Source: Octopus sinensis
Lineage: Eukaryota
Direction: 5' to 3'
DNA length: 64,000 nucleotides
Assembly (NCBI RefSeq): GCF_006345805.1
Contig: NC_042999.1
Coordinates: forward strand, 121,892,001 to 121,956,000
The notes beneath the pieces are model-generated. The model worked only from the letters and a program-made list of their open reading frames with translations. It had not been told where the DNA came from and did no database searches. Both the position numbers and the translations under genes were made by a program. This document shows, in pieces, positions 1 to 63,066 of this stretch (position 1 is the first letter of the stretch; each line of letters begins with the position of its first letter).

Positions 1-71
1 GGTCTCTGGGTGAGACTTGGAGCCAACTTGTACAGACATAAAGCAAAAGTCAAACATAGAATAATAATAAT

Positions 72-257
72 AATATCGAAAAATACCTTAGGAATGAGAA
101 CCCAGGTTCGAAATTTCCCCAAGGCACCTGATGAAGGCTGGAAGGTATATCATCCAAAACATTGTGTTAACAACAAACAAGATGAGGACAAATATCTGTC
201 AAGTGTAAATAGTGTAAATAATGTACATAATTCCTCATCTCTTAAATATAGAACTGT
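72..257 (+). mobile_element. Hammerhead-bearing short element (3' part), same family as 37866-38014 and 39376-39550
   Basis: Near-identical to the other two copies. Degenerate hammerhead GGCAC-CTGATGA-A-GGCTG..CATCC-AAAAC-ATT-GTGTT at ~123-168, in which GAAA has become AAAA. Preceded by (AAT)n. Confidence 0.8.
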
Positions 258-7084: not shown

Positions 7085-8412
7085 CTCATTTTGTTGCCCT
7101 TGCTCCTACCTCTCCAACACCACCAGCCTCAGAGGTACCCATCACTGTCCCTTTCACGTCACCAACTCCTTTAATTGCACCTGTAGTAATGTCATTTACT
7201 GCATCTTTTGTTCTCTTTGTCCTTCCCTCTACATTGGTCAAGCAGGACATCGCTTGGCTGACTGGTTTGCAGAGCACCAGGACATCGGACTCAGCAATGA
7301 CACCCCGGTCTTATGCTCTACCAGTCATTTACTACAACATCTGTCTGTGTTTGGACTATCTCTGCACAAGGGTCATCAAGACTCCCACCTTTAATGTGAA
7401 CAGGAATTAATCTTCTCTATTTTCACTCTTTTGCACCACATGGGCTTAATTCACCACCTCTCTTCATTTGACACCAATTCCACACGAATTCCCACTCACC
7501 TACCACACTCTACACCTACACACCCACATACCACCCACCTTCGTACACTCACCCACGCACACCACTATACACACATCCATACACACTGTTCAACTCATCA
7601 CTCACTTCACATACCATTACACACACACCCACAACATCATCCCACTCCACACACACTAGCACTGACCACTTCTCAACACCCATGCAACACACCATCATCC
7701 ACACACACACAATCTTCAATAGAGTCACCACACATACCACTATATAAGCAGCCACACACACTGTTTAACTCGGTACACACACCACACCATCATGCACACT
7801 CCCACACTCACACAAGCACATAATACCTGAACACAGATAATATATACACATACACACATATACACACATGCAACATGCATAAACACATGCAACATACATA
7901 GACAAAGATAACTTCCACCCACATACATATACTATACACATGCACACTATTTGCTAACAGTGACACACACACATACACATGTACACACACCATGTGTAAA
8001 AGCACACATCAACTGCTACACACAACATGCACATGTCACACATATCTCACGCACACACACATGTCAAACTCACTCTCCCCCATTCACACATACACACTAG
8101 TCTCACATGCACACACACACACACTTGCACACTTTCTCTCATTGTGATTACCCCAAATTATCTCCCCTTCATTCAACCACTCATTATTATTATCTCCCTT
8201 TCATTCAACCTCTTTTTATTCAATCATTTGCCATGTTGGACTACTGAACACAACTTGTTTTTTTCATTATCTATTTATTTCCTCTTATTCCTTTCTGTCA
8301 AAGAGTGTAGGCTCAAAATGTAAAAGATTTTTCCATTTTCCCTGACCGTCCAACTAATACACTTGTTTGTTCTTCCTACACTTGTCTTCATCTTTGTTTT
8401 CCTATAAATTTG

Positions 8413-30762: not shown

Positions 30763-30838
30763 GTATACTCTTGGTGTTTATATGATAACACGGTGTAATA
30801 AATATTTGGCCAAATAATGAAAAAGAGTTATACTTATA

Positions 30839-31225
30839 AGCATAGGAGTGGCTATGCGGTAAGTAGCTTGCTAACCAGCCATATGGTTCCGGGTTCAGTC
30901 CCACTGCATGGCACCTTGGGCAAGTGTCTTCTACTATAGCCTCGGGCCAATCAAAGTCTTGTGAGTGGATTTGGTAGACAGAAACTGAAAGAAGCCCATC
31001 GTATATATGTATATATGTATGTATGTGTTTGTGTCTGTGTTTGTTCCCCCAACATCCCATGACAACTGATGGTGGTGTGTTTACATCCCCGTAACTTAGC
31101 AGTTCGACAAAAGAAACCGATAGAAGCTTATAAAAAAATAAATCCTGGGGTCGATTTGCTCAACTAAAGGCGGTGCTCTAGCATGGCCACAGTCAAATGA
31201 CTGAAACAAGTAAAAGAATAAAAGA
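30839..31225 (+). mobile_element. SINE family A, full length (tRNA head plus CORE-like CCTTGGGCAAGT segment)
   Basis: A-box-like TGGCTATGCGG, B-box-like GGTTCAGTCCC, internal microsatellite and (GAGTAAAA)-type tail. Confidence 0.9.
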
Positions 31226-31504: not shown

Positions 31505-31750
31505 GTTCCTTCTCAAGCCATATCAGGCACATAAGGGCCATTTTCCCGGTTTCAGTGGCATAGAAATTCCCCCACCTGGACAGGATGCTGGTCCGTCACA
31601 GTGTTACTTATTTTTGCCAGCTGAGTGGACTGGAGCAATGTGAAAATGAAGTGTTTTGATCAAGAACACAATGCATCGCCTGGTCCAGGAATTGAAACCA
31701 CAACCTTACAATCATGAGTTTGACACCCTAACCACTAAGCCACACGCCTC
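31505..31750 (-). mobile_element. SINE family C (tRNA-derived)
   Basis: Minus-strand head GAGGCGTGTGGCTTAGTGGTTAGGGTG..GGTTTCAATTCC, followed by CTCCAGTCCACTCAGCTGGCAAAA. Related pieces at 55650-55768 and 62833-62982. Confidence 0.8.
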
Positions 31751-32939: not shown

Positions 32940-33395
32940 TCAGGTTTTGCTGAAAATCCTGGATTCTTGCATGTGTAGTAGGCTTGCTGCCTGCAGCCTA
33001 TGGTACTATGCTATCTGTTCTTTTCGACTATCTAATACTTTCTTGATTATTCTGGATGTATTGAGGAGGAAAACCTTTTGTAACAGATCTATTGGGCACT
33101 CTATTCTGATTCCCTTTATATTCTTCTAGATGTCTTCTGGTACTGACCCCAAAGACCCAGCAGTAATTGACACTATCTTCACCTTCTTCATTCTCCATAG
33201 CTGGGCTATTTTGTATGTAAGGGGGTTGTACTTTTTTATTATTTTGCCTTCCTTCTTGACTATATTGCACATGTGGTGCATCTTGTCCACCACCACTAGG
33301 TTCAGTTCGTTATGCTCTAGCCTACTGATCTGTTTGGACTGGGAAATCCAACAGGATTTTGCAGGTCTCTGACTTTGCCTCAGAAAGAGCCTCTT
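32940..33395 (-). pseudogene. Decayed R4/Dong-like RLE endonuclease fragment
   Basis: KILLDFPVQTD / NELNLVVVDK / KIIKKY..L..KIAQLWRMK.V.IVSITAGSLGSV, homologous to the ORF at 38165-38518. Confidence 0.75.
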
Positions 33396-34409
33396 GTTGA
33401 CTTTGGAGCAAGAGAGAAGAGTTGTGCTGAAAGCCATGAAGAGCAGTGATTCTGCTGACCCACCAACTGGAGAGTATTACAGTTCTGGGTTGAAACACCA
33501 ATGAACATTGGATACTATTGAAAGCTCCGTTCACTTTGGTGAATGGAAAAAAAACATCTCCATCTAGGTGTTATTAAAAGATATACATCCTTCATATATA
33601 TATATAGTTATTTATATATATATATATATACTTTTTGGTGAAACCTGCAAAGACATCACAAAACTGCAGTTATTTTGTGATGGTTTTGCAGCTTTAATAA
33701 AAAAGTATATTACTCTACCTTTGGTATTTGAGTACTGTTTTTTTCCACCATGTTTTGCATTTATGTGCTTACTCATGTGTATCACACACACACACACATG
33801 CACACACACATATATATATATATTCTGTATGCATCATTATTGCATAAATTTATACTTGTATATTTATAAATATATGTGTGTGTGTGCATATAAATATATT
33901 CACACGTGTGTTTGTGTGTATGCATTATTAAACAGATGTATCTTATTTTCAGCCTTTCTATATTTTCTGTGTACTTAACAGAATATAAGTGCTTAGATTT
34001 TCATGCTTCCAGATGTTTTATTAATTGTACTCATGCGTAAGTGTATATCCAAAAGGAAAGATTTGGTTTATTTTCATCTTATCCTCATGTAAAAGAGGGG
34101 AGTTACATCACTGATTATTTTTTTGTAATCATATCTGCATGATTATGCATAAGTAAATTATCTTATAATGATATTTACTCTTTTTTATACCATCATAGAC
34201 TGACTGTATCCTTAAATTTGGCGTATTTGCAGAAATTCATATAATTATTTAAGCATATCTTTTTAAAAAATTTGCTATACATTCCCATTACCTGAAACTT
34301 AGTCTTATAGTAAGACTTATAAATATTTGCGTTTAGATTTACTACTACCATTATCTACGTTACTGCAGCTAGCATTGGCAGTAGTAGCAGCAACCACAGT
34401 GATATCACC

Positions 34410-36210: not shown

Positions 36211-37180
36211 GTATATAAATAACATAGCTAGCAGTTGCAATCAATTGTTAAACAAAAGAATAAATCAAATCAAAATGTTGTTCTATCTTTACTATGAAAT
36301 TCCAAACTTCAAGTGTGTGAAACAACTGTACCTGATACCCGTCTTTTCTAGACCCAACTTGTTCATTTGACTGTCCTGTCCCAATATGTTATTGACAAAA
36401 TTTGAAGTGGATTTATGTCTTGCTTGATAATACATATCAGGAATCGAAACAGTATAAAATCAGAATACTTTTTAGAGTGATCCATAACTTTAAAGTCAGT
36501 CATTAGACATTTAGAAATTGAAGAAAATAACCTCATATGCTTCAAAATTTTTCTCAGTCAAAACACAATTACAGAACTTCTTTAACTCTATTCAATAATT
36601 AGATTATGTTGAGTTTGTTTGTCTTTTAAACAAAACTAATAAATAAATGAATAAAAAATAAAGAAGAATTATTTTGCTTCAAAATGTTTACTCATTTGCA
36701 CATACATTAGCTATTTTATAATCGTTTTATTTTTATATTTGTTAGTGTTTATAATTTGATTATATTATACATTGCAATTTTTTTTTATTTTTAGGAATTA
36801 ATTTATCTCAATTCTGGCATTAACACTAAGTCCACTTTCCTATGAAGTTAAAACCTTTAATACATGATGAGAAGTTGAATGTAGTACCTGTCTTGTTAAA
36901 GATGATGTATATATCATAGACATCAAATATATCATTGTAACCCTTTTGGTAACAATGAAATTACCCATATTAAAGTGTTTAAACAAAACTTTTGATCAAA
37001 ATCTAACTAAAGATAAATTGTGACATAAGATTACAGCTGTAAACACCAGTATATAAATTTATACATATTTTATTGAACCTTACCAAAGTTTTAAATATAT
37101 ATATGAGACTTATCTATTCTACCAGATTTTCTTTTTTACTGATCAATCATATTGTTTATGAATTGTTTATGAATAATGTA

Positions 37181-37606
37181 GGCATAGGAGTAGCTGTGTG
37201 GTAAGTAGCTTGCTTACCAACCACATGGTTCCGGGTTCAGTCCCACTGATTGGCACCTTGGGCAAGTGTCTTATACTATAGCCCAGGCTGACCAATGCCT
37301 TGTGAGTGGATTTGGTAGATGGAAACTGAAAGAAGCCCGTCGTATATATGTATATATATATACATATATATATATATATACCTATATATATATTTGTGTG
37401 TGTGTTTGTGTTTGTCTCCCCAACATCGCTTGACAACCGATGATGGTGTGTTTATGTCCCCGTAACTTAGTGGTTCGGCAAAATAGACTGCTAGAATAAG
37501 TACTAGGCTTACAAAGAATAAGTGCTGGGGTTGATTTGTTCGACTAAATGCGGTGCTCCAGGATGGCCACAGTAAAATGACTGAAACAAGTAAAGAGTAA
37601 AGAGTA
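37181..37606 (+). mobile_element. SINE family A, full length
   Basis: Same structure as 30839-31225. Confidence 0.92.
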
Positions 37607-37865
37607 ATGCCCAAGACAAAACATCCTCTTGTTATTCAACCTACTAAAAATATCAACTAAATATCCCTCAAATTACATCGTAGAAAAGTAATACAATGCT
37701 TGATGTCATCTTTATTACTCTAAAAGACTTGATGACGATGGTTGAAACACCATTGGTCTGCTTAGTTCAAAGTTGACTTGAGGCCAAACAACAATATCAA
37801 CAAATACAAACTCCAATTTATAATGCAAAAGTGCTTCAATGATAATTTTAAAGCTGTATATATAT

Positions 37866-38014
37866 ATTATTTACATTATTTACATTCGACGGATATTTGT
37901 CCTCATCTTGTTTGTTGTTAACACAACGTTTTGGCTGATATATCTTCCAGCCTTCTTCAGGTGTCTTGGGGAAATTTCGAACCTGGGTTCTCATTCCTAA
38001 AGTATTCTTTGATG
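37866..38014 (-). mobile_element. Hammerhead-bearing 3' part of the left arm of the tRNA-headed element
   Basis: Reverse complement of 39376-39520. The hammerhead at 37920-37965 has GAAA changed to AAAA. Confidence 0.9.
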
Positions 38015-38067
38015 TTATTATTATCATCATCATCATCATCATTATTATTATTATTATTATTATTATT

Positions 38068-39136
38068 CAGTAGTATATTTTTTATATCGTGCTTTCACTT
38101 CACTACCGAGTACAGCTCTGTGTGCCTTGGGTATGTGCTGTGATTTGTTGTGATGCTCTGATGGTTATTGTATGGAAAGTGTTCTGTGTAGGATGTGTGC
38201 AGTGCCTAGTAGTGCAATTTTCTGTATGTTATATGTGTTTGTAAGTCCTGGTGTTTTTGTTATGTATTTGTCTGAATATTTTTTTATCATGCCTAATGCA
38301 CCTACTATGATAGGAATTGTTTCTGTTTTTAGATTCCACATTCTGGTTACCTCTATTTCCAGGTCTTTGTATTTTGAGAGTTTCTCCATTTCTTTTAGAG
38401 ACACGTTGTCATCTGCCGGTATTGATACATCAATTAGAAAGCATTTTTTTTCTTCATGATCTCTGACAACTATATCTGGCCTGTTGGCCTTAATTTCTCT
38501 ATCTGTGTGTATCGGCATATCCCAGAGTATGGTTGCTTTCTCGTTTTCTGTGACCTTTTCTGGTGTGTGCCTATACCATATTTTTTCTGTTGTTATTCCA
38601 TAATGTTGGCATAGCTTCCAATGTATGTAGGTTCCAACTCTGTCATGTCAGTGAATATATTCCTTCTTAGCCAGGACTGGGCAGCTAGAGATAATATGAT
38701 TTATTGTTTCTTGTCCATCTCCACATATTCTGCAGTTACTTGTAATATTTCTTTTCATTGCAAGTTTTTAGTAATTTCTGGTGGGGAGGCTTTGGTCTTG
38801 TGCTGCAATTAAAAATCCCTCTGTTTCTGCTTTGAGTCCTGAGTTTCTCAACCATTGCTGGGATTTTTCTTTGTCTATTTCTTTTGCGTTTAGTTTAGTC
38901 CAGTATTTACCTTGAAGGGGCTTTTCTTGCCATCGTTTTATCATGGTTCGTTGCTGTTCTAGTTTTAGTTTGGATTTCATTTGTTTTATAGCTTTTGTTG
39001 TTTCTTCTTCTTCTTCTTCTTCTTCTTCTTCTTCTTCTTCTTCTTCTTCTTCTTCTTCTTCTTCTTCATATATATTAGGTGGTATGATTTCTTGTTTGTA
39101 TTTGTCAGCTTCCTTAAATACTGAGAACAGTTTTTT
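38068..39136 (-). mobile_element. 5'-truncated R4/Dong-clade non-LTR retrotransposon (CCHC knuckle plus restriction-like endonuclease), inserted in (TAA)n
   Basis: One reading frame with two stops: ETEGFLIAAQDQSLPTRNY*..CRICGDGQETINHIISSC..H*HD..ILWD.PIHTD..NRPDIVV..LIDVSIP..KLSKYKDL..PIIVGALG..LLGTAHIL. About 95 nt of 3' UTR. (TAA)n on both sides. Confidence 0.92.
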
Positions 39137-39148
39137 ATTATTATTATA

Positions 39149-39190
<42 letters not shown>

Positions 39191-39348
39191 GTTCAGATGA
39201 CTGCTTGGAATCGAACTCAGAATCTTGGGGTTAGTAGCCAGCACTCTTAACCACTATGCCATATGCCCACGGGCATATGGCGTAGTGGTTAAGAGTGCTG
39301 GCTACTAACCCCAAGATTCCGAGTTCGATTCCAAGCAGTGACCTGAAC
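39191..39348. promoter_or_regulatory. Head-to-head pair of tRNA-like Pol III heads (78-bp inverted arms, 2-nt spacer)
   Basis: Arms 39191-39268 (-) and 39271-39348 (+) differ by 4 mismatches. A box TGGCGTAGTGG at 39278-39288 and B box GTTCGATTC at 39323-39331. No proper acceptor stem, so this is a SINE-type head and not a tRNA gene. Confidence 0.88.
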
Positions 39349-39375
39349 AATAATAATAATAATAATAATAATAGT

Positions 39376-39550
39376 AACATCGAAGAATACCTTAGGAATG
39401 AAAACCCAGGTTCGAAATTTCCCCAAGACACCTGAAGAAGGCTGGAGGGTATATCAGCCGAAACGTTGTGTTAACAACAAACAAGATGAGGACAAACATC
39501 CATCGAATGTAAATAATGTACATAATTCCTCATCTCTTAACTATAAAACT
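39376..39550 (+). mobile_element. 3' part of the right arm of the tRNA-headed hammerhead element
   Basis: Third copy of the family. It follows the head and (AAT)n and ends at a (TA)n tract. Confidence 0.9.
39427..39472 (+). ncRNA. Minimal type I hammerhead ribozyme (PLE-type)
   Basis: Stem I GACAC/GUGUU, core CUGAAGA plus an extra A, stem II GGCUG/CAGCC, GAAA, and a loopless palindromic stem III ACGU. Predicted cleavage after GUU at 39467. Confidence 0.75.
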
Positions 39551-40998
39551 GCTGTATATATATATATTTTGGAAGTACAGATATTTGGAAACAAGAATAG
39601 TTTCTGGAAAACATACTATTACATATTATTTCTGAGCTATTTTAACATAAAATGTTAATGCATTTTTTGTAGCCTAAGTAGTTACATGGGGATTAAAAAT
39701 ATTTCACTATCATTATATAACTACATAAATCTATGCTTTCTTGTCAGTTGTTAGGCATAACAATTAATAGAGTTAAGTATGGAATAAATCTCTCATAAGC
39801 AGTCTCTTGAGTTTAAAGAAGACTCACATTTAAGAAAGAGGGAGAAAATGTTTTTGTTGTGAACTAATTCTATATTATTTTATTTTAGTTGCCATCCTTA
39901 AATTACAAATTATATTTAATGTTTTTTTGATTTAAATTCATTTCTAACTCTAAATCTAAAGATATTTATTTAAAAAGGAACTAATTTTATTGTAATTTGA
40001 AAGTGATTTTTAGCAAACAGCTGGAAATATAATTAATTTCCCCATTAGTTAGCAATTCATCAAATAAATGTTTTCTCCTTGCTTTGGTTGAATTCTTTGA
40101 ACTAAACGCATCCTATTTAAAAAGAATTTTGTTGCAATATTAAAATAACAGTGGACACTTAGTAAATTGGTATCAATTCATGTTACATGCACTTTTCTGA
40201 CTGATCACTTTCTAAATTACATTTTAAACATCTTAATTAAGAATTAATTAAAATTTAAGAATGAATAGTTAATTGTAGTAAATTAAACTTCATAATATTT
40301 TTTTCAGTTTTATGGACAGCTTAATTCTGTTCACATTACCTCTTTCTTATAGTATTATCAAATACAGCATCTTCCATCTTTTGAGAATCTCTGAAAAGCT
40401 GTTGTCTATAAAAGGTATTACGAGGAATAATTTACTTCTTAGAGAGAAAAAAAATTATAAATAGAGATTGAAATAGTTTAAATTTTATTTTGCTATTTGA
40501 TGTGAATTAAAATGTGAACATATTTTTTGCTAACTATATTATTTATGAGACATTTTAAAAATTAATTAAAAATATAGGCACATCTATAGTAAAGAATAGT
40601 AAATAATTTTCATAAATTTAGAATAATACTTTATGAAGGAATTTACCCATAATACTATCATTCAAAATAAGGGAGACATTTTAAAACTGTAGTGTTATAT
40701 GTCAATTATAATGCCTTTTAAAAACATCTCTGAACTACCAGACCATTAAAATATTCACTGTCTAATACTAAATTTATTTCTTTATAGTGTCCAATAATTC
40801 ATAGAATCAATTTCATCCATAAGCAGAAGCTAATTCCAGTGGGGGCTGGATAATTTCCAATACATTACTAGTATGTCTTTTGATCAAACTCAAAACAAAA
40901 GGCAAAGTTTGCATTAAAAAGATTTAAATTCAGTTTACAAGATTAAGTTAAATACTTTAGACATTTAGTCTATCTAGCTTTAATATTTCTCCCAGTTT

Positions 40999-53628: not shown

Positions 53629-55145
53629 AAGTATTCATGAACCTAGTGAAGAAAAAGAGAGATGATTTTGGAAGAGTCTTACCTTCTATATGTAATGTGA
53701 AGTTTGCTATTTCTTTTTGATTATCATTTCCATGTCTTATTGATTTTCATGTCCTTATTGCTGCTGACTACTGACTGTTTTCTTCTGTTAACCCTTGAGA
53801 TTTAGTTGTGTCACAATTTCTTGTTGAGTAGGTGTTTTTCATTTTGAAAATATTCAGTATTTATCTTTTTCCATTTGATTATAATTATTTCGTTAATTTT
53901 CCAAATATCTTCTGTTGTGTTAGTTTAATGTTGTTTTAGGTTTTATGGTTGGACACACATTTTGTCACAGGGTATATATCTTTTCTATATCATTCCATAT
54001 TGAATTTCATTAGGATGCAAATAATACCTTGGTGATCCTTTTTTTTAACTTAATGGCACACTGTAAATTTGTTTTCCTCGGAGAGTTTCTGCATGTAGTC
54101 TCTTTATATTCCCAAATCTATATGGATTATATTGCCATTAAAAGTTGGCACAGTTATAATTTATGTTCTAATAGCATGTTAGTTATAATCTTCCTCTGAA
54201 GTTTCTAGGAATTTTCCAAGTTTTTAATATGTCTAGTTGATATTTTATCATATAGTTATGAGAAGCTTCATGTTTAAAAGACAGAAATCTGGTGTTGGTA
54301 CTTCCAAGAATAAAATCATTTTATAAATCTGTTATCTGCATATTAATAAGAAAAGAGAATATTACTATGCCTTCAGTTGGTTGAAGATACAGAAAACTAT
54401 ATGTATTTTGAGTTAGACATATATTCATTAGGATTAATTCTTTTCAATGCAAGCTTTATGGAAAAGTAATGTATTTATTATAAAAACAATTTTGTTTGTA
54501 AGATATACTTCCCCGTAAACGATTTTTTTCCATAAATATTATACAGGTTTACCAATATATTTCTGTGTTCTTAAGGTGTGGGAAATATTTTTTTATAAAG
54601 AAATGAATATATATTTTTGTTAAATCAAATATTCAGCATTAGAAGGCTAGATTTTTTTTACATTTTTGTTTATTTGACATTAATGTTTTAGCATTACTGC
54701 TGCTTCTTGTGAAAGTATTCATAACAATAAGAAATAATTGTTTTGAGTATGAGTTCTGAAAGTATTGCTACTGAATTGAGAGGCTAATATGTAAAATGTG
54801 TGCTATGCCAAGAAGAGCTAATTTTTAGATTATGAGCAGTTCCAAAAATCAGCAAGGCGCTTAAAGTTTTAATTTTTCTTATTTATCCAGTGCATCAAAT
54901 ATTACCCATGTCATTGAATTCTCTTGGTATCTCTATCTTGAGGTCTTTGAATTTGGATAGATTTTCAATTTTGTTTTGGACATTTTGTTTATAATAATAT
55001 CAAGATACCTATGAAATTGCTCAGATTTTTCATTTGAATGTAATTAGATTGAGTAACCTTACAGGCATGTGTCACACATAGATAAGAGGGTTGGCTGAAA
55101 AGTTGAAAGGCTGACCAAGATACTCTCATGGAATACGACCAAATA

Positions 55146-55310
55146 GGTGTAGGAGTGGCTGTGTGGTAAGTAGCTTGCTTACCAACCACATGGTTCTGGG
55201 TTCAGTCCCACAGCATGGCACCTTGGGCAAGTAAATTCTACTATAGCTTCAGGCCAATCAAAGCCTTGTGAGTGGATTTGGTAGACGGAAACTGAAAGAA
55301 GCCCAACGTA

Positions 55311-55353
<43 letters not shown>

Positions 55354-55605
55354 ATATATATATATATATGTGTGTGTGTATGTGTGCATATGTTTGTGTG
55401 TCTGTGTTTATCTACCAACATTGCTTCACAACCGATGCTAGTGTGTTTACATCCCCGTAACTTAGCAATTCAGCAAAAGCAACCGATAGAATAAGTACTA
55501 GGCTTACAAAGAATAAGTCCTGGGGTCGATTTGCTCGACTAAAGTTGGTGCTGCAGCATGGCCACGGTCAAATGACTGAAACAAGTAAAAGAGTAAAGAG
55601 TAAAA
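55146..55605 (+). mobile_element. SINE family A, full length
   Basis: Same structure as the other family A copies. Confidence 0.92.
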
Positions 55606-55878
55606 GGTAATGAGGTTTATGTTTTTAACTCGGCTGGCCCTTGGAAATTGCAGGTACAACTCACTTTTGCCAGCTGAGTGGACTGGAGGAAAACCGTGTA
55701 ACAACATGCTGCTGGTTTTCGAACTCATGATCATGAGCCGAATACTCTAGCCTCTAAGCCACACACCAGCAGATACCAGTTGACAATTGCATATCTCCTA
55801 TTGTTACACAAACATACACAGATAACAACATACACACATACACACTCAAACACAGTCACATATTATTACATACACATA

Positions 55879-56047
55879 GGTGTAGGAGTGGGTGTGTGGT
55901 AAGTAGCTTGCTTATGAACCACATTGTTCTGGGTTCAGTCCCACTGCGTGGAACCTTGGGCAAATGTCTCCTGCTATAACCCTAGGCTGACCAAAGCCTT
56001 GTGAGTAAATTTGGTAGACAGAAACTGAAAGAAGCCTATCATATATA

Positions 56048-56102
<55 letters not shown>

Positions 56103-56340
56103 ATGTATATATAAATATGTATGTGTGTTTGTGTGTCTGTGTTTGTCCCTACAACATCGCTTGACAACCGATGCTGGTGTGTTTACGCCCCCCCCCAACT
56201 TAGCGGTTCGGCGAAAGAGATTGATAGAATAAGTCCTAAGCTTACAAAGAATAAGTCCTGGGGTTGATTTGCTCAACTGAAGGCAGTGCTGCAGCATGGC
56301 CACAGTCAAATGACTGAAACAAGTAGAAGAGTAAAAGAGT
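55879..56340 (+). mobile_element. SINE family A, full length
   Basis: Same structure as the other family A copies. Inserted in a CA-rich tract. Confidence 0.92.
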
Positions 56341-56439
56341 ATACATACACACAGTATATTCATTTTATATATAAACATATGCATACATGTATAAGCACAA
56401 ACACACATATGCAGAGATATCAGCAGGCAGTTATAGTTT

Positions 56440-58379: not shown

Positions 58380-61300
58380 ATTGTAGGGATAAAGACTCTA
58401 ACAAAGAGAGAATGGTTTCTTTCTTTTGAGGTGGGGTGGGGATAGGGATGTTTTTTTTATTGTATCCACTTTATCTTGCAAAGATATTGATATTTTCTGT
58501 TTTAACATGTTGTGATTGATATACATACTTAATATAGGAGATATTTCTTTATGTATAGTCTTTCCACTATTCCAGAATGTTCCAGAATGTTGTAAATATT
58601 TTGGCAATCATACCACACTGTGATTATGATTATGGTTTGTACTTACGTGGTTTTTAATTACTAATTGGTTTACTATTATTGCTTCCTTGAAACCATTCAG
58701 TACTTTTTGTTAAGATTTGTTAAGATATCCTCTGTCAGAGAGAATAGATGTCAGATTTTGCATATTCTTGGTAAACAGTTATTAGTCAATAGGATTTTGA
58801 AGGGGTTGGGTTGAATAAAATTGCATCCCTTTCTAATGATCTCAGGTTTTTATTCCATTCTGGTTAATGTATTATGAATTCATTGACTCTAATTAAGTAG
58901 TTTAACCAGAAATTGACGACATAATCAATTTGCAATAGCATTTCCAAGTTCCCATATAATTATACTTAGATTCTTTTTCATCATGCATCAGTTTTCTTTT
59001 GTAATTTTGACCCAATATTTTCTTATAATATAATTGAATTGAGACTTAAGGGTATACCAAGAATGAGATATTTGGATCATATCCATAGTTTCAGCTGGTC
59101 ATGCTTGGAAATCCAACCAGAAAGTGTAATGACAGTTGCTTCTGGTTTAACCATATGGAGGAGGTGTCTGATAACTCTACTCCCACAAACTTCCCAAGAT
59201 TAGTGGGTGGAGAAGATGGATATATTAACCCGATATAATTTCTACATATTTGTTTCAAATACAAAATTTAATAGAAGTGCTCAAATTTTTTAAAGCATCT
59301 TAGTTTGCATATCATTTCTAGAATAAGTTGTTTAAATTTTTTTCCTTTCCTGAATATCTTCCAGCTTCTTACTGCTGTATTTTCTAAATATAATTCCCAT
59401 TTTTGTCTTTGCTATTTCATGTTCCACCTACTCTGCAAACATTTTCTCTTTGTTGAGTGATAGCTTTTTTCTCTTTTTGTTGATCTCATACTGTATTTTC
59501 ATTCCACTGTATCTTTGAAAGGACTGGGTGAGGAGTGATTTTGATCCAACCCAGTCTTCTTTGATATTTCCATGGCTGCTGAGTAATTTAAGTTATTTAG
59601 CATATTAATATATGGATTTTCTTCTGTGGAAATATTTTCTTGGGGAGCATAGTTGTATTTTGATAATATTTTCTACCTTTTTTGTTGTTTCATTCAGAAG
59701 GTGTTTTCATTGATCCATGGTGATTGATTTTATTATAGTTGGTTCTTTTCCTATTGTGTTTACTGTTTCTGTTTATTGTGTATTGTTTCCTCCTGATTTT
59801 TCCTATTGTGATATATTTTATTATTCTGTTGTTATGTGGGAGAAGAATTATGTTTTTGTTTTGGTTATGAATTCAAATGCTTGTTCCTGAGTGATCATAA
59901 GCTTCAATTTTTATTTTTTCCTTTTGTTTGTTTCTCTCTCTGTGTCTGTTTTAATTCAGTTATAATGACTTGTCGTTTTCATATGCGGACAGTTATATTG
60001 CATTATTTTCTGAGGGATGTGAGGGCTTATCTACTTGTTCTATTTGTCTTATTGTATGGCTTTTCTTGGTTTGTAGGTGCTTTATTGTATGGTAACTTCT
60101 TCTGTTTTATGTAATCTTCATATGAGTTGATTGCAATTTTTTTGTTTCTGAGATAACATTTTTGTTTATATAAATCAGCACACATTAGCTAATTTATCTG
60201 AGTTTACTTATTGTCTAAAATATACATTTCTTTCAACTCCAAATCTCATTTGTTTATGATGCTAGTTTTCACTGTATATAATATAGTTGGGGTGGTGTAT
60301 TTTTAAAACTAACAAATATTTATCCTATTAATCTACGTTCACTTTTAGCTTTCATAACATTCTATGGATATTAGAAGTAAGAAACAGATATTGGAAGGGA
60401 AATGTAAACCTTTGAGCAGATGCTGTTTCTGGTACTCTTTTTGTGAATACTTTGTTGCTTGAACATATGCTAAAGCATTTATCATAAACATCTAGGCTAG
60501 AATGATTAATATTATCATTGCTTGTATTGTTTATTCATAACCATTGTCTTGCATAGCAATGGTTTTCTTCAAAGTTAGTTCATTTTGTTTTGTCTTGATA
60601 TTCAATTTCTGGGAATATCAGGTTGTTGCATATTTTCATATAGAGCTGGTAGAAACAACATTTTTTTTATCATCAGAATTTAGATATCTTTATTTCCAAA
60701 TCCTTATATTTCAATACTTCTTTAAACTCCTCCATAGCGACATTATCATGAAGATAGTAATGTATGTTAATAGACATGATTTATTCTTATTTTATTTAAT
60801 GTGTTGTACAAATGATATAAAAGTTGCATTACAATAATTATCTAATAGTCGGTGAGAGAAAGTAACATTCCTTATTGTTCCAAATCAATGTAATTTATTT
60901 TGTTCCATGCTTTTTACTCATGCAGGTGATTTGACATTATCAAATTCACCTTTAACATATTCAATTATTCATTTCAAAAATCAAAGCTATTTTTGATAGT
61001 TTAAATATCACCGGTTTAGTATAAATTTTTATTTCTTAATAATTGGTTAACTAGGCAAGCAAAAAATTATGGATCTAATAACAAACTTCATAGGCAGTTA
61101 AGTGATTAGATTTTAGGATCTTTATATAAGGAATATATAGTTCACATGTTGTGTGTAAATTCTGTCAAGACCTCTAGGTAGTGCTGTTGGGAAATTTCCC
61201 ATTGCTTCTTGAGCATATATATTTTAAATTTTATGTGAATTTCATTTCATATTCACTGCTAAACTTTGATCTCAATTTCTTCTGAAATGAGTAAATGTAT
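58380..61300 (-). mobile_element. Possible very old L1/Tx1-like LINE remnant
   Basis: Long stretch that is A-rich on the minus strand, with faint RT-like motifs (PRGLD near 61170 and a QGCPLSP-like remnant near 60850-60880). Confidence 0.35.
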
Positions 61301-62649: not shown

Positions 62650-63066
62650 TTTCAAAATTTGGCACATAGCTAGCAATTTTGAGGGAGGAGTAAGTTGATT
62701 ATATCGACCCCAGTGCTCAACTGGTTATTATTTTATTGAGCTTGAAAGGACAAAAGGCAAAGTCAACCTATTCTTTTATTCTTTTACTTGTTTCAGTCAT
62801 TAGACTGTGGCTATGCTGGGGCACCACCTTGGAAAGCTGTGGTGAAACAGTCAGCAGAAGTTTTGCCATTAGCTTCTACCAGAGGTTTCACTCATAAACA
62901 CACACATCACCCGGTCTGAGATTCAAACCCATGATCCTTCAACCGTGAGTTCACTGTTCTAACCACTAGGCCATGTGCCTCCATGTGAAATTTGAACACA
63001 AAATGTAAAAATGGATGAAGTTCCTCCAAACATTTTGATTGTTATGCTAACCATTCTGCCAGCTCA
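62650..63066 (-). mobile_element. Nested SINEs: family B split by a family A tail (62770-62832) and a family C head (62833-62982)
   Basis: Family B sequence resumes at ~62983 after the inserted pieces. Confidence 0.7.

What the first reader, a model, noticed from the sequence alone, without database searches (positions are those of the whole stretch)
39427..39472. Intact minimal hammerhead that could probably cleave only as a dimer
Seen: all core nucleotides are present (CUGAAGA, GAAA, GUH) with paired stems I and II. Stem III is only ACGU, within the palindrome AACGUU, with no loop. Known: such minimal PLE hammerheads are reported to self-cleave through dimerisation. The two other copies (123-168 and 37920-37965) have G-to-A at the catalytic G12 in a CpG context, so CpG decay appears to inactivate older copies.
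Basis: partly seen in the sequence, partly recalled or inferred. Interest (0 to 1): 0.7.

Follow-up and report, generated by a model that had tools for sequence, protein, structure and literature searches.

The report
Octopus tRNA-headed Penelope fragment with hammerhead
The small self-cutting-RNA motif is really there, but it is the already described "minimal hammerhead" of Penelope-type jumping genes, sitting here in one arm of a head-to-head insertion of a very abundant, likely octopus repeat; the unusual part is that this repeat carries a tRNA-like promoter head, so it is likely a SINE-style passenger of Penelope enzymes, and its ribozyme is predicted to cut rarely, if at all.

Summary
Observation confirmed. 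39427-39472 holds a complete minimal type I hammerhead: CUGAAGA plus an extra A, a 6-bp stem II, GAAA-CG-UU, a 5-bp stem I and no loop III (0 of 200 shuffles). This class is described for Penelope-like elements (PLEs; PMC4209133).

The motif sits in a ~280-nt unit: tRNA-like head with A and B boxes, (AAT)n, then a PLE end-module. The unit lies here twice, head to head, inside one 15-bp target duplication, with the PLE 'tail' on one arm only.

The 37920 copy is the sister arm of the same insertion, not an older copy. About 27,500 contigs of one public run carry the module. G12 is mutated in 11-14% of depth in the two DNA runs, close to a CpG outside the ribozyme (11%), so this copy is not special and shows no sign of selection.

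No same-strand partner lies nearby, and folding predicts that the active fold is disfavoured in context. Cleavage was not testable (no raw RNA reads).

The lead worth keeping is a Pol III-headed non-autonomous PLE. It is shown at this locus and in one outside protein record, but was not counted genome-wide.

The parts
39427..39472 (+). Minimal type I hammerhead motif, all core bases present, stem III = ACGU without loop; predicted cut after 39467
39271..39348 (+). tRNA-like head of the right arm: A box from 39278, B box 45 nt further on; begins 7 nt before the A box, where a tRNA's first base would lie
   Evidence: 2 A+B pairs in the window, the two arms; 0.005 per shuffle; box consensus recalled; no ARAGORN or Rfam tRNA hit
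39349..39372 (+). (AAT)n spacer between head and PLE module
39375..39551 (+). PLE end-module (pseudo-LTR-like) holding the hammerhead; 39527-39551 is the optional 'tail'
   Evidence: 3' ends of other copies cluster at 39520, 39526, 39545, 39551
39269..39270 (.). 2-nt centre of the head-to-head junction
39191..39268 (-). tRNA-like head of the left arm (4 differences in 78 nt from the right head)
39149..39190 (-). (AAT)n of the left arm, upstream part
38068..39148 (-). 5'-truncated 3' fragment of a non-LTR element with an R2-like (REL) endonuclease, likely R4/Dong, nested in the left arm's (AAT)n
   Evidence: weak match to R2 proteins in PDB, E 0.017; Dong targets (TAA)n per PMC7998251; the clade name is inferred
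38021..38067 (-). (AAT)n/(GAT)n of the left arm, downstream part
37866..38020 (-). PLE module of the left arm, without tail; hammerhead at 37920-37965 with G12A, stem III intact
37853..37867 (+). Left copy of the 15-bp target-site duplication GCTGTATATATATAT
39551..39565 (+). Right copy of the target-site duplication; first TTTT after the head follows at 39567
60..256 (+). Separate, more decayed copy: (AAT)5 + module with tail; hammerhead 123-168 with G12A, G16.2A and a broken stem II pair; no head in the 59 nt before it

Best explanation
The motif is a minimal hammerhead inside the end-module of a very abundant repeat that lies here as a head-to-head pair within one target duplication, and that repeat is likely a short non-autonomous Penelope-like element: a tRNA-like head likely lets Pol III transcribe a ~300-nt RNA, Penelope enzymes likely copy it into AT-rich DNA, and the hammerhead is predicted to ride along mostly uncut.

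Shown: the motif; the unit head + (AAT)n + module in both arms; the 15-bp duplication; the tail on one arm only; clustered 3' ends; very many copies; G12 decay near the CpG rate.

Inferred: Pol III transcription from 39271 to the TTTT at 39567; mobilisation in trans by an autonomous PLE, whose RT starts at the internal sites that give the four 3' ends; that most family members carry the head.

Predicted for the ribozyme: no cleavage as a monomer (no stem III). At most slow cleavage after U39467, through a two-molecule double hammerhead (4-bp ACGU/ACGU helix) or with help from the PLE protein. Low activity would suit such an element, because a cut would part the promoter from the 3' part that the RT needs.
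For: Class: the motif has the traits listed for metazoan PLE min-HHRs, namely an extra nucleotide between 9 and 10.1, G10.1-C11.1, palindromic 15.2-16.2, stem I of 4-5 bp and a long stem II (PMC4209133).

One insertion: arms 37866-38046/39346-39526 (91%) and 39162-39268/39271-39377 (95%). The 15-mer GCTGTATATATATAT occurs only at 37853 and 39551 in the window; 0 of 3000 random flank pairs 1.7 kb apart share 15 nt.

PLE signature: an inverted 5'-adjacent copy and a 30-40-bp tail at one end only (PMC8557442); tail = stretch between RT start sites, AT-rich targets (PMC11167929). Here the left arm ends at the 39526 equivalent and the right at 39551. Loose ends into unlike AT-rich flanks cluster at 39520/39526/39545/39551: 177/175/88/317 contigs in X1, 134/106/81/273 in X4 (705 rows not shown).

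Abundance: 27,518 and 29,958 contigs laid in X1 and X4; 3 modules in 64 kb.

Head: the only 2 A+B-box pairs of the window; both arms start at the head's first base; no TTTT in 39270-39566. 3 of 3 window modules follow an (AAT)n tract.

Outside copy: P0001 reads head-3'-half + N-run + module in one frame, 83% identical over 42 aa to 39313-39432, preceded by the inverted tail (8 of 8 residues match copy 1's reverse frame).

Passenger: G12 G>A in 11.3/14.1/6.0/7.2% of depth against 11.1/11.0/12.4/7.3% at CpG 39414 outside the ribozyme. Predicted pairing of stem I is about 0 in the 300-nt unit and at most 0.02 in the module, and the motif is wholly paired with the sister arm in a read-through transcript.
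Against: The head-module link rests on 2 independent events: this insertion, and one predicted protein, P0001, whose DNA I could not see and which could be spliced. Copy 1 has a different sequence in front of its (AAT)n. The read-laying tool skipped 39271-39384 as repeat, so no genome-wide linkage count exists. No autonomous PLE sharing this module was found. The head scores neither with ARAGORN nor with Rfam. The target duplication is mostly (AT)n and was picked after the arms were known. Folding numbers ignore tertiary contacts and proteins. In both runs guessed to be RNA, G12A (6-7%) is lower than in the two DNA runs (11-14%), but the outside CpG is as low in X20 and X15 is another organism label.
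Confidence: 0.68

Rival explanations
1. Ordinary 5'-truncated PLE end-pieces. The module is the pseudo-LTR end of an autonomous or long PLE; the head is a separate AAT-tailed SINE (perhaps moved by R4/Dong) that lodged in the (AAT)n of a few source copies, so head + module is a minor chimera and not the family's structure.
For: Copy 1 lacks the head within the window. An (AAT)n tract attracts insertions, as the nested REL element shows. Head and nested element both end in CTGAA-type letters before (AAT)n. An earlier unchecked note found a similar SINE-PLE inverted pair to be a one-off in another genome (e1-7811937).
Against: Both arms begin at the head's first base inside one duplication, so the copied template held the head. 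P0001 shows the same join elsewhere. Depth does not fall steeply from 39470 to 39411 (9.6 to 7.0 million in X1, 7.9 to 7.4 million in X4), so most copies reach near the AAT tract. No ORF lies directly upstream of the module in 3 of 3 window copies.
Confidence: 0.25
2. One reading: the hammerhead is an active processing site. Abundant element RNAs pair in trans, or tandem copies pair in cis, cleave after U39467 and may circularise as non-LTR retrozymes do.
For: The core is intact in most of the depth. A nested double hammerhead can be drawn, at -22.3 kcal/mol. One joint in X1 runs from 39500 back to 39399 at depth 1587, against about 50 for single contigs, which hints at a tandem ~105-bp unit holding the motif (table 5c). 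Min-HHR dimers and trimers show some cleavage.
Against: There is no same-strand intact partner in the window. Two monomers (2 x -12.0) score slightly better than the dimer. Stem I is out-competed in context. Published activity is low; 8 of 9 Xenopus dimers did not cleave; PLE insertion did not need cleavage in vitro and no RNA-seq reads began or ended at the site in Anolis.
Confidence: 0.15
3. This particular copy has been kept by the host as a working regulatory ribozyme.
For: Only that it keeps all core bases while two neighbours do not.
Against: An intact core is the majority state (86-94% of depth keeps G12). The copy has its own decays elsewhere, for example 39497 and 39502. The sister arm would pair with it in any read-through RNA.
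Confidence: 0.02

Closest known systems
Minimal hammerheads (min-HHR) of metazoan Penelope-like elements (Cervera and de la Pena 2014, PMC4209133)
   Same: Type I, loopless palindromic stem III, extra base after A9, G10.1-C11.1, short stem I; mostly solitary copies from truncated elements; opposite-strand pairs are also reported there.
   Different: Octopus examples did not appear in what I read; here the motif lies behind a tRNA-like head and an (AAT)n spacer; stem II is 6 bp (7-8 bp in Schistosoma, 6 bp in D. virilis).
Insertion units of EN+ PLEs (Penelope/Poseidon, Neptune; PMC8557442, PMC11167929)
   Same: Inverted copy adjacent at the 5' end, tail on one end only, clustered 3' ends, AT-rich target.
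   Different: No RT or GIY-YIG ORF in the unit; arms end at a Pol III-type head, not at a random point in an ORF; the autonomous partner was not identified.
Schistosome Sm-alpha/Sj-alpha SINE-like hammerhead elements and non-LTR retrozymes (PMC6765202 passages; PMC7229834 passages; bioRxiv 10.64898/2026.07.22.740005)
   Same: Short, non-coding, Pol III promoter followed by a hammerhead (Sm-alpha); proposed to be PLE-derived non-autonomous elements (retrozymes).
   Different: Those are head-to-tail tandem repeats processed by cleavage; this locus is a dispersed head-to-head pair with PLE tail and target duplication, and the hammerhead is the minimal form.
tRNA SINEs, and TRIMp3 (Helenus, Ajax, Cassandra; Kojima 2024, PMC10886601)
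   Same: Captured small-RNA promoter at the 5' end plus a part recognised by an autonomous element.
   Different: Those depend on LINEs or LTR elements; here the 3' part and the insertion marks are PLE-type. That paper has 0 occurrences of 'Penelope'.

Membership tests
PLE minimal hammerhead (min-HHR) | Core CUGANGA, GAAA, UH with stems I and II | tested here: met
PLE minimal hammerhead (min-HHR) | No loop III; palindromic 15.2-16.2; extra base between 9 and 10.1; G10.1-C11.1 | tested here: met
   against the list in PMC4209133
PLE minimal hammerhead (min-HHR) | Covariation in stems across copies | tested here: inconclusive
   No compensatory pair among the 3 window copies; one search lists single-site variants of 4% or more only, with no phasing
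PLE minimal hammerhead (min-HHR) | Self-cleavage as dimer or with protein | not testable with these tools
   No raw RNA reads were offered; contigs cannot show ends
Penelope-like element insertion | Inverted copy adjacent at the 5' end | tested here: met
   PMC8557442
Penelope-like element insertion | Optional tail at one end, clustered 3' ends, AT-rich target | tested here: met
   the tail is 25 nt here (31 nt from 39520) against 30-40 in print
Penelope-like element insertion | Module homologous to the pseudo-LTR of an autonomous RT + GIY-YIG element | tested here: inconclusive
   No linked ORF in the window; protein searches with the module's frames gave only P0001 and P0002; no genome or repeat library on hand
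tRNA-derived SINE | A and B boxes at tRNA spacing at the 5' end | tested here: met
   (consensus recalled)
tRNA-derived SINE | Similarity to a tRNA by covariance model | tested here: not met
   degenerate heads often fail such models (own knowledge)
tRNA-derived SINE | Head and 3' part travel together in many copies | tested here: inconclusive
   2 independent events for, 1 copy without a head in view; region skipped
tRNA-derived SINE | 3' tail derived from and moved by a LINE | tested here: not met
   The 3' part is a hammerhead module with PLE-type ends
tRNA-derived SINE | Pol III transcription | not testable with these tools
   No T4 run within the unit is compatible, not proof
Non-LTR retrozyme | Head-to-tail tandem units, each with a hammerhead | tested here: not met
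   Not at this locus; one back-joint in X1 hints at a tandem form elsewhere
Non-LTR retrozyme | Circular RNA | not testable with these tools
   No raw RNA reads

The most novel reading that the evidence does not exclude
A high-copy octopus family of Pol III-promoter-bearing, non-autonomous Penelope-like elements: a SINE equivalent moved by PLE machinery and not by a LINE, alongside SINEs and TRIMp3. It keeps a minimal hammerhead because the motif cannot cut as a monomer, and its (AAT)n spacer serves as a landing site for R4/Dong elements.
Probability: 0.4. Interest if true: 0.6.

Novelty: new variant of a known kind. Interest (0 to 1): 0.33.

Why it matters
The hammerhead as flagged matters little: it is one of very many copies of a described motif class.

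If the head + module unit is the family's normal form, it would show that PLE enzymes move Pol III transcripts in trans. It would supply a natural ~300-nt minimal substrate for the PLE in vitro system (PMC11167929), with four natural RT start sites. It would also let the open question of what PLE hammerheads do be tested by sequence counts alone, by comparing core decay in source and dead copies. Octopus annotations count 11.6% SINE and 6.83% Penelope-like DNA (PMC13282606); a hybrid family would be split or mislabelled between the two.

Tried and rejected
- No whole genome is held, so there is no copy count or linkage count from an assembly.
- Rfam: 0 hits at gathering score in the window; at E<=10 in 39180-39600 only 2 chance hits. 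ARAGORN: 0 genes.
- Collection scans: viral contigs 0; bacterial and archaeal genomes 0; metagenomes 6 loci, all chance 18-20-mers with no further likeness and no hammerhead context, dropped.
- Protein searches with frames of the unit: 1 of 12 candidates (P0001), 0, 1 of 4 candidates (P0002, an Octopus sinensis gene model that starts in the module's frame), and 1 hit in 1.84 billion (P0001 again). None is an RT.
- Sequencing runs: no RNA holder listed. I laid 4 of the 24 runs; two are only guessed to be RNA and all four are contigs, so they say nothing on expression or cleavage. No pile-up of molecule ends was listed. Summed depth over single-contig depth (about 8 million over about 50) would suggest an order of 100,000 copies, but the tool states this is no copy number, so only 'many thousands' is claimed. 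X1 may be the window's own source.
- 'Older copies are inactivated' is rejected for the 37920 copy (same insertion). 'This copy is under selection' is rejected.
- The GIY-YIG-like fragment at 7137-7391 was considered as the partner; it has no DNA match to the module.
- Earlier findings: nothing by sequence, genome or relatives.
- Literature: 10 searches showed no description of a tRNA-headed PLE derivative or of this octopus family. Repbase, Dfam, SINEBase, the octopus genome paper, the 2016/17 dimer paper of Lunse et al. and Ohshima and Okada 1994 on octopus tRNA retroposons could not be read, so absence from print is not established.

Full report
Observation. The motif is as described: stem I 39427-39431/39468-39472, core CUGAAGA 39432-39438 plus an extra A, 6-bp stem II 39440-39445/39454-39459, G12 at 39460, then AAA-CG-UU with the predicted cut after U39467. 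A descriptor scan finds it as the only G12-bearing site in 64 kb; 200 shuffles gave 0 strict sites, and 0 of 100 shuffles matched a core pattern. The isolated 46-mer folds into stems I and II, though not unusually well (z -1.27). Two more copies lie at 123-168 (+) and 37920-37965 (-), both with G12A in a CpG; the first has also lost the stem III palindrome and a stem II pair. Rfam has no model for it.

Class. PMC4209133 (parts 1-2 of 4 read: results and discussion) defines the minimal hammerhead of Penelope-like elements by exactly these traits. It reports thousands per genome, mostly solitary, some as opposite-strand pairs, no monomer activity and low dimer or trimer activity. PMC11167929 (parts 1-2 of 4) adds four points. 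The anole PLE hammerhead cuts only with the PLE protein present. Cutting is not needed for insertion in vitro. No RNA-seq reads began or ended at the site. RT starts at internal sites that explain the optional tail. So the ribozyme is a new member of a known class.

Anatomy. The hammerhead sits in a ~175-bp module (39375-39551) behind an (AAT)n tract and a 78-nt head (39271-39348). The head has an A box and a B box 45 nt apart; the window has only 2 such pairs, against 0.005 per shuffle (box consensus recalled). The second pair belongs to an inverted copy of the head that meets the first across 2 nt at 39269-39270. Read on the minus strand, that copy runs head, (AAT)n, a 1.1-kb fragment of a REL-endonuclease non-LTR element, (AAT)n, module. 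The fragment matches R2 proteins weakly (E 0.017); R4/Dong elements target (TAA)n in molluscs (PMC7998251 passages), so it is most likely a later Dong insertion into the spacer (inferred). The whole structure is bracketed by GCTGTATATATATAT at 37853 and 39551, found nowhere else in the window; 0 of 3000 random flank pairs share 15 nt (caveat: largely AT repeat, chosen after the fact). The left arm stops at the 39526 equivalent and the right at 39551. An inverted 5'-adjacent copy and a tail on one end only are the marks of PLE insertions (PMC8557442 passages). Hence the focal and 37920 hammerheads are one insertion event and the same age; the arms differ at 13 of 229 aligned bases, 5 of them CpG-type.

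Family. No genome is held. Of 24 runs listed, 4 were laid on 39271-39570 at 80% likeness. 27,518, 29,958, 2,844 and 3,587 contigs fit the module. Their 3' ends break into unlike AT-rich flanks at 39520, 39526, 39545 and 39551 in X1 and X4 (705 rows not shown), as expected from several RT start sites. G12 is A in 11.3, 14.1, 6.0 and 7.2% of depth, against 11.1, 11.0, 12.4 and 7.3% at a CpG outside the ribozyme (39414), and 8-18% at the other CpG positions of the motif. N7 is U in 74-87%. The source elements thus had an intact core, dispersed copies decay at about the CpG rate, and the focal copy is unremarkable. These are depth-weighted shares over contigs, not copy counts; X1 may be the window's source. 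The tool skipped the head and spacer as repeat, so linkage was not measured. A named Octopus sinensis gene model begins in one of the module's frames (89% identity over 61% of the 59-aa query), which places the family in octopus; the window's species is inferred only to that level. A second predicted protein, P0001, reads the 3' half of the head, an Asn run and the module start in one frame (83% over 42 aa), preceded by the reverse-complement tail. That is one outside instance of the same join with a PLE-type inversion, seen only as protein. Against generality, copy 1 has an unrelated 59 nt before its (AAT)n; this may be another nested insertion, but the window ends there.

Mechanism. Shown: structure, single insertion, PLE-type ends, abundance, decay rate. 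Inferred: Pol III reads from 39271 through the unit, which has no T4 run until 39567; an autonomous PLE's RT and endonuclease nick AT-rich DNA and copy the RNA from internal start sites, giving the inverted pair. Both arms ending at the head's first base fits a full-length Pol III template; it counts as one observation if the pair arose by fold-back. Predicted: the ribozyme has no stem III as a monomer. A double hammerhead with a 4-bp ACGU/ACGU helix is drawable (-22.3 against 2 x -12.0 kcal/mol). In the 300-nt unit stem I pairs with probability about 0 and stem II at most 0.2, and in a read-through transcript the motif is wholly paired to the sister arm. The window holds no same-strand intact partner. 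So cleavage, if any, would be slow and in trans or protein-assisted. A cut would sever the promoter from the RT-recognised end, so an inactive monomer suits the element.

Comparison and novelty. Nearest are PLE min-HHRs and PLE insertion units, Sm-alpha-type Pol III hammerhead elements (PMC6765202 passages), non-LTR retrozymes as PLE derivatives (bioRxiv 10.64898/2026.07.22.740005, parts 1-3 of 5; PMC7229834 passages), and small-RNA-headed SINEs and TRIMp3 (PMC10886601 passages and part 1 of 6). Octopus repeat papers (PMC13282606 passages and a term search of its one supplement; PMC8967140 passages; PMC6962438 passages) did not describe this element in what I saw; PMC13282606 has 0 occurrences of 'hammerhead'. 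PMC3899998 passages added nothing. Ten searches found no tRNA-headed PLE derivative, but Repbase, Dfam, the octopus genome paper and the 1994 octopus retroposon paper were out of reach, and the supplements of the bioRxiv preprint and of PMC4209133 were not seen; the family may already be catalogued. Earlier notes of this scan (unchecked, seen after my reading was formed) report the same head-to-head PLE ends in other genomes, and one SINE-PLE pair that proved a one-off, which is the main rival here.

Verdict. The hammerhead is real and ordinary (alone about 0.15). The carrier, a likely Pol III-headed non-autonomous PLE of high copy number, is a variant worth one assembly-wide count. Overall interest 0.33.

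Noticed in passing
window 38068-39148 (-): 3' fragment of a REL-endonuclease non-LTR element, likely R4/Dong, nested in the element's (AAT)n; it holds a long GAA repeat and in-frame stops.
   Followed up: partly
window 7137-7391 (+): Decayed GIY-YIG-like frame with a Cys-rich lead, as in PLE endonucleases; Atlas score 0.94 to clusters in which 20-35% of members carry PF01541, no Pfam hit; no DNA likeness to the module.
   Followed up: partly
table 5c, run X1, joint 39500 to 39399: Back-joint at depth 1587 against about 50 for single contigs: hints at a tandem unit of about 105 bp holding the hammerhead, which would be retrozyme-like.
   Followed up: no
run X15, 39417-39510: Excess of T>C and A>G differences (6 and 3 places; U4 of the core at 14%) in a run guessed to be RNA; could be A-to-I editing of inverted copies or simply another species' alleles.
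   Followed up: no
window 1-59 (+): Sequence in front of copy 1's (AAT)n has no match elsewhere in the window; may be the 3' end of another AAT-targeting insertion.
   Followed up: partly
window 33126-33476 (-), 54771-54988 (-), 60676-60771 (-): Further decayed REL-type non-LTR fragments (the first judged by eye only).
   Followed up: no
window 31729-31748 (-) and 62960-62979 (-), with the ~450-bp family at 30830-31225, 37179-37607, 55140-55602, 55873-56341: Other tRNA-like SINE heads and a multi-copy SINE-like family unrelated to the hammerhead module.
   Followed up: no
P0002 (Octopus sinensis LOC115224785 isoform X2), residues 1-37: A gene model starts in a frame of this repeat that spans the hammerhead; may be a mis-predicted exon or an exonised copy.
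   Followed up: no
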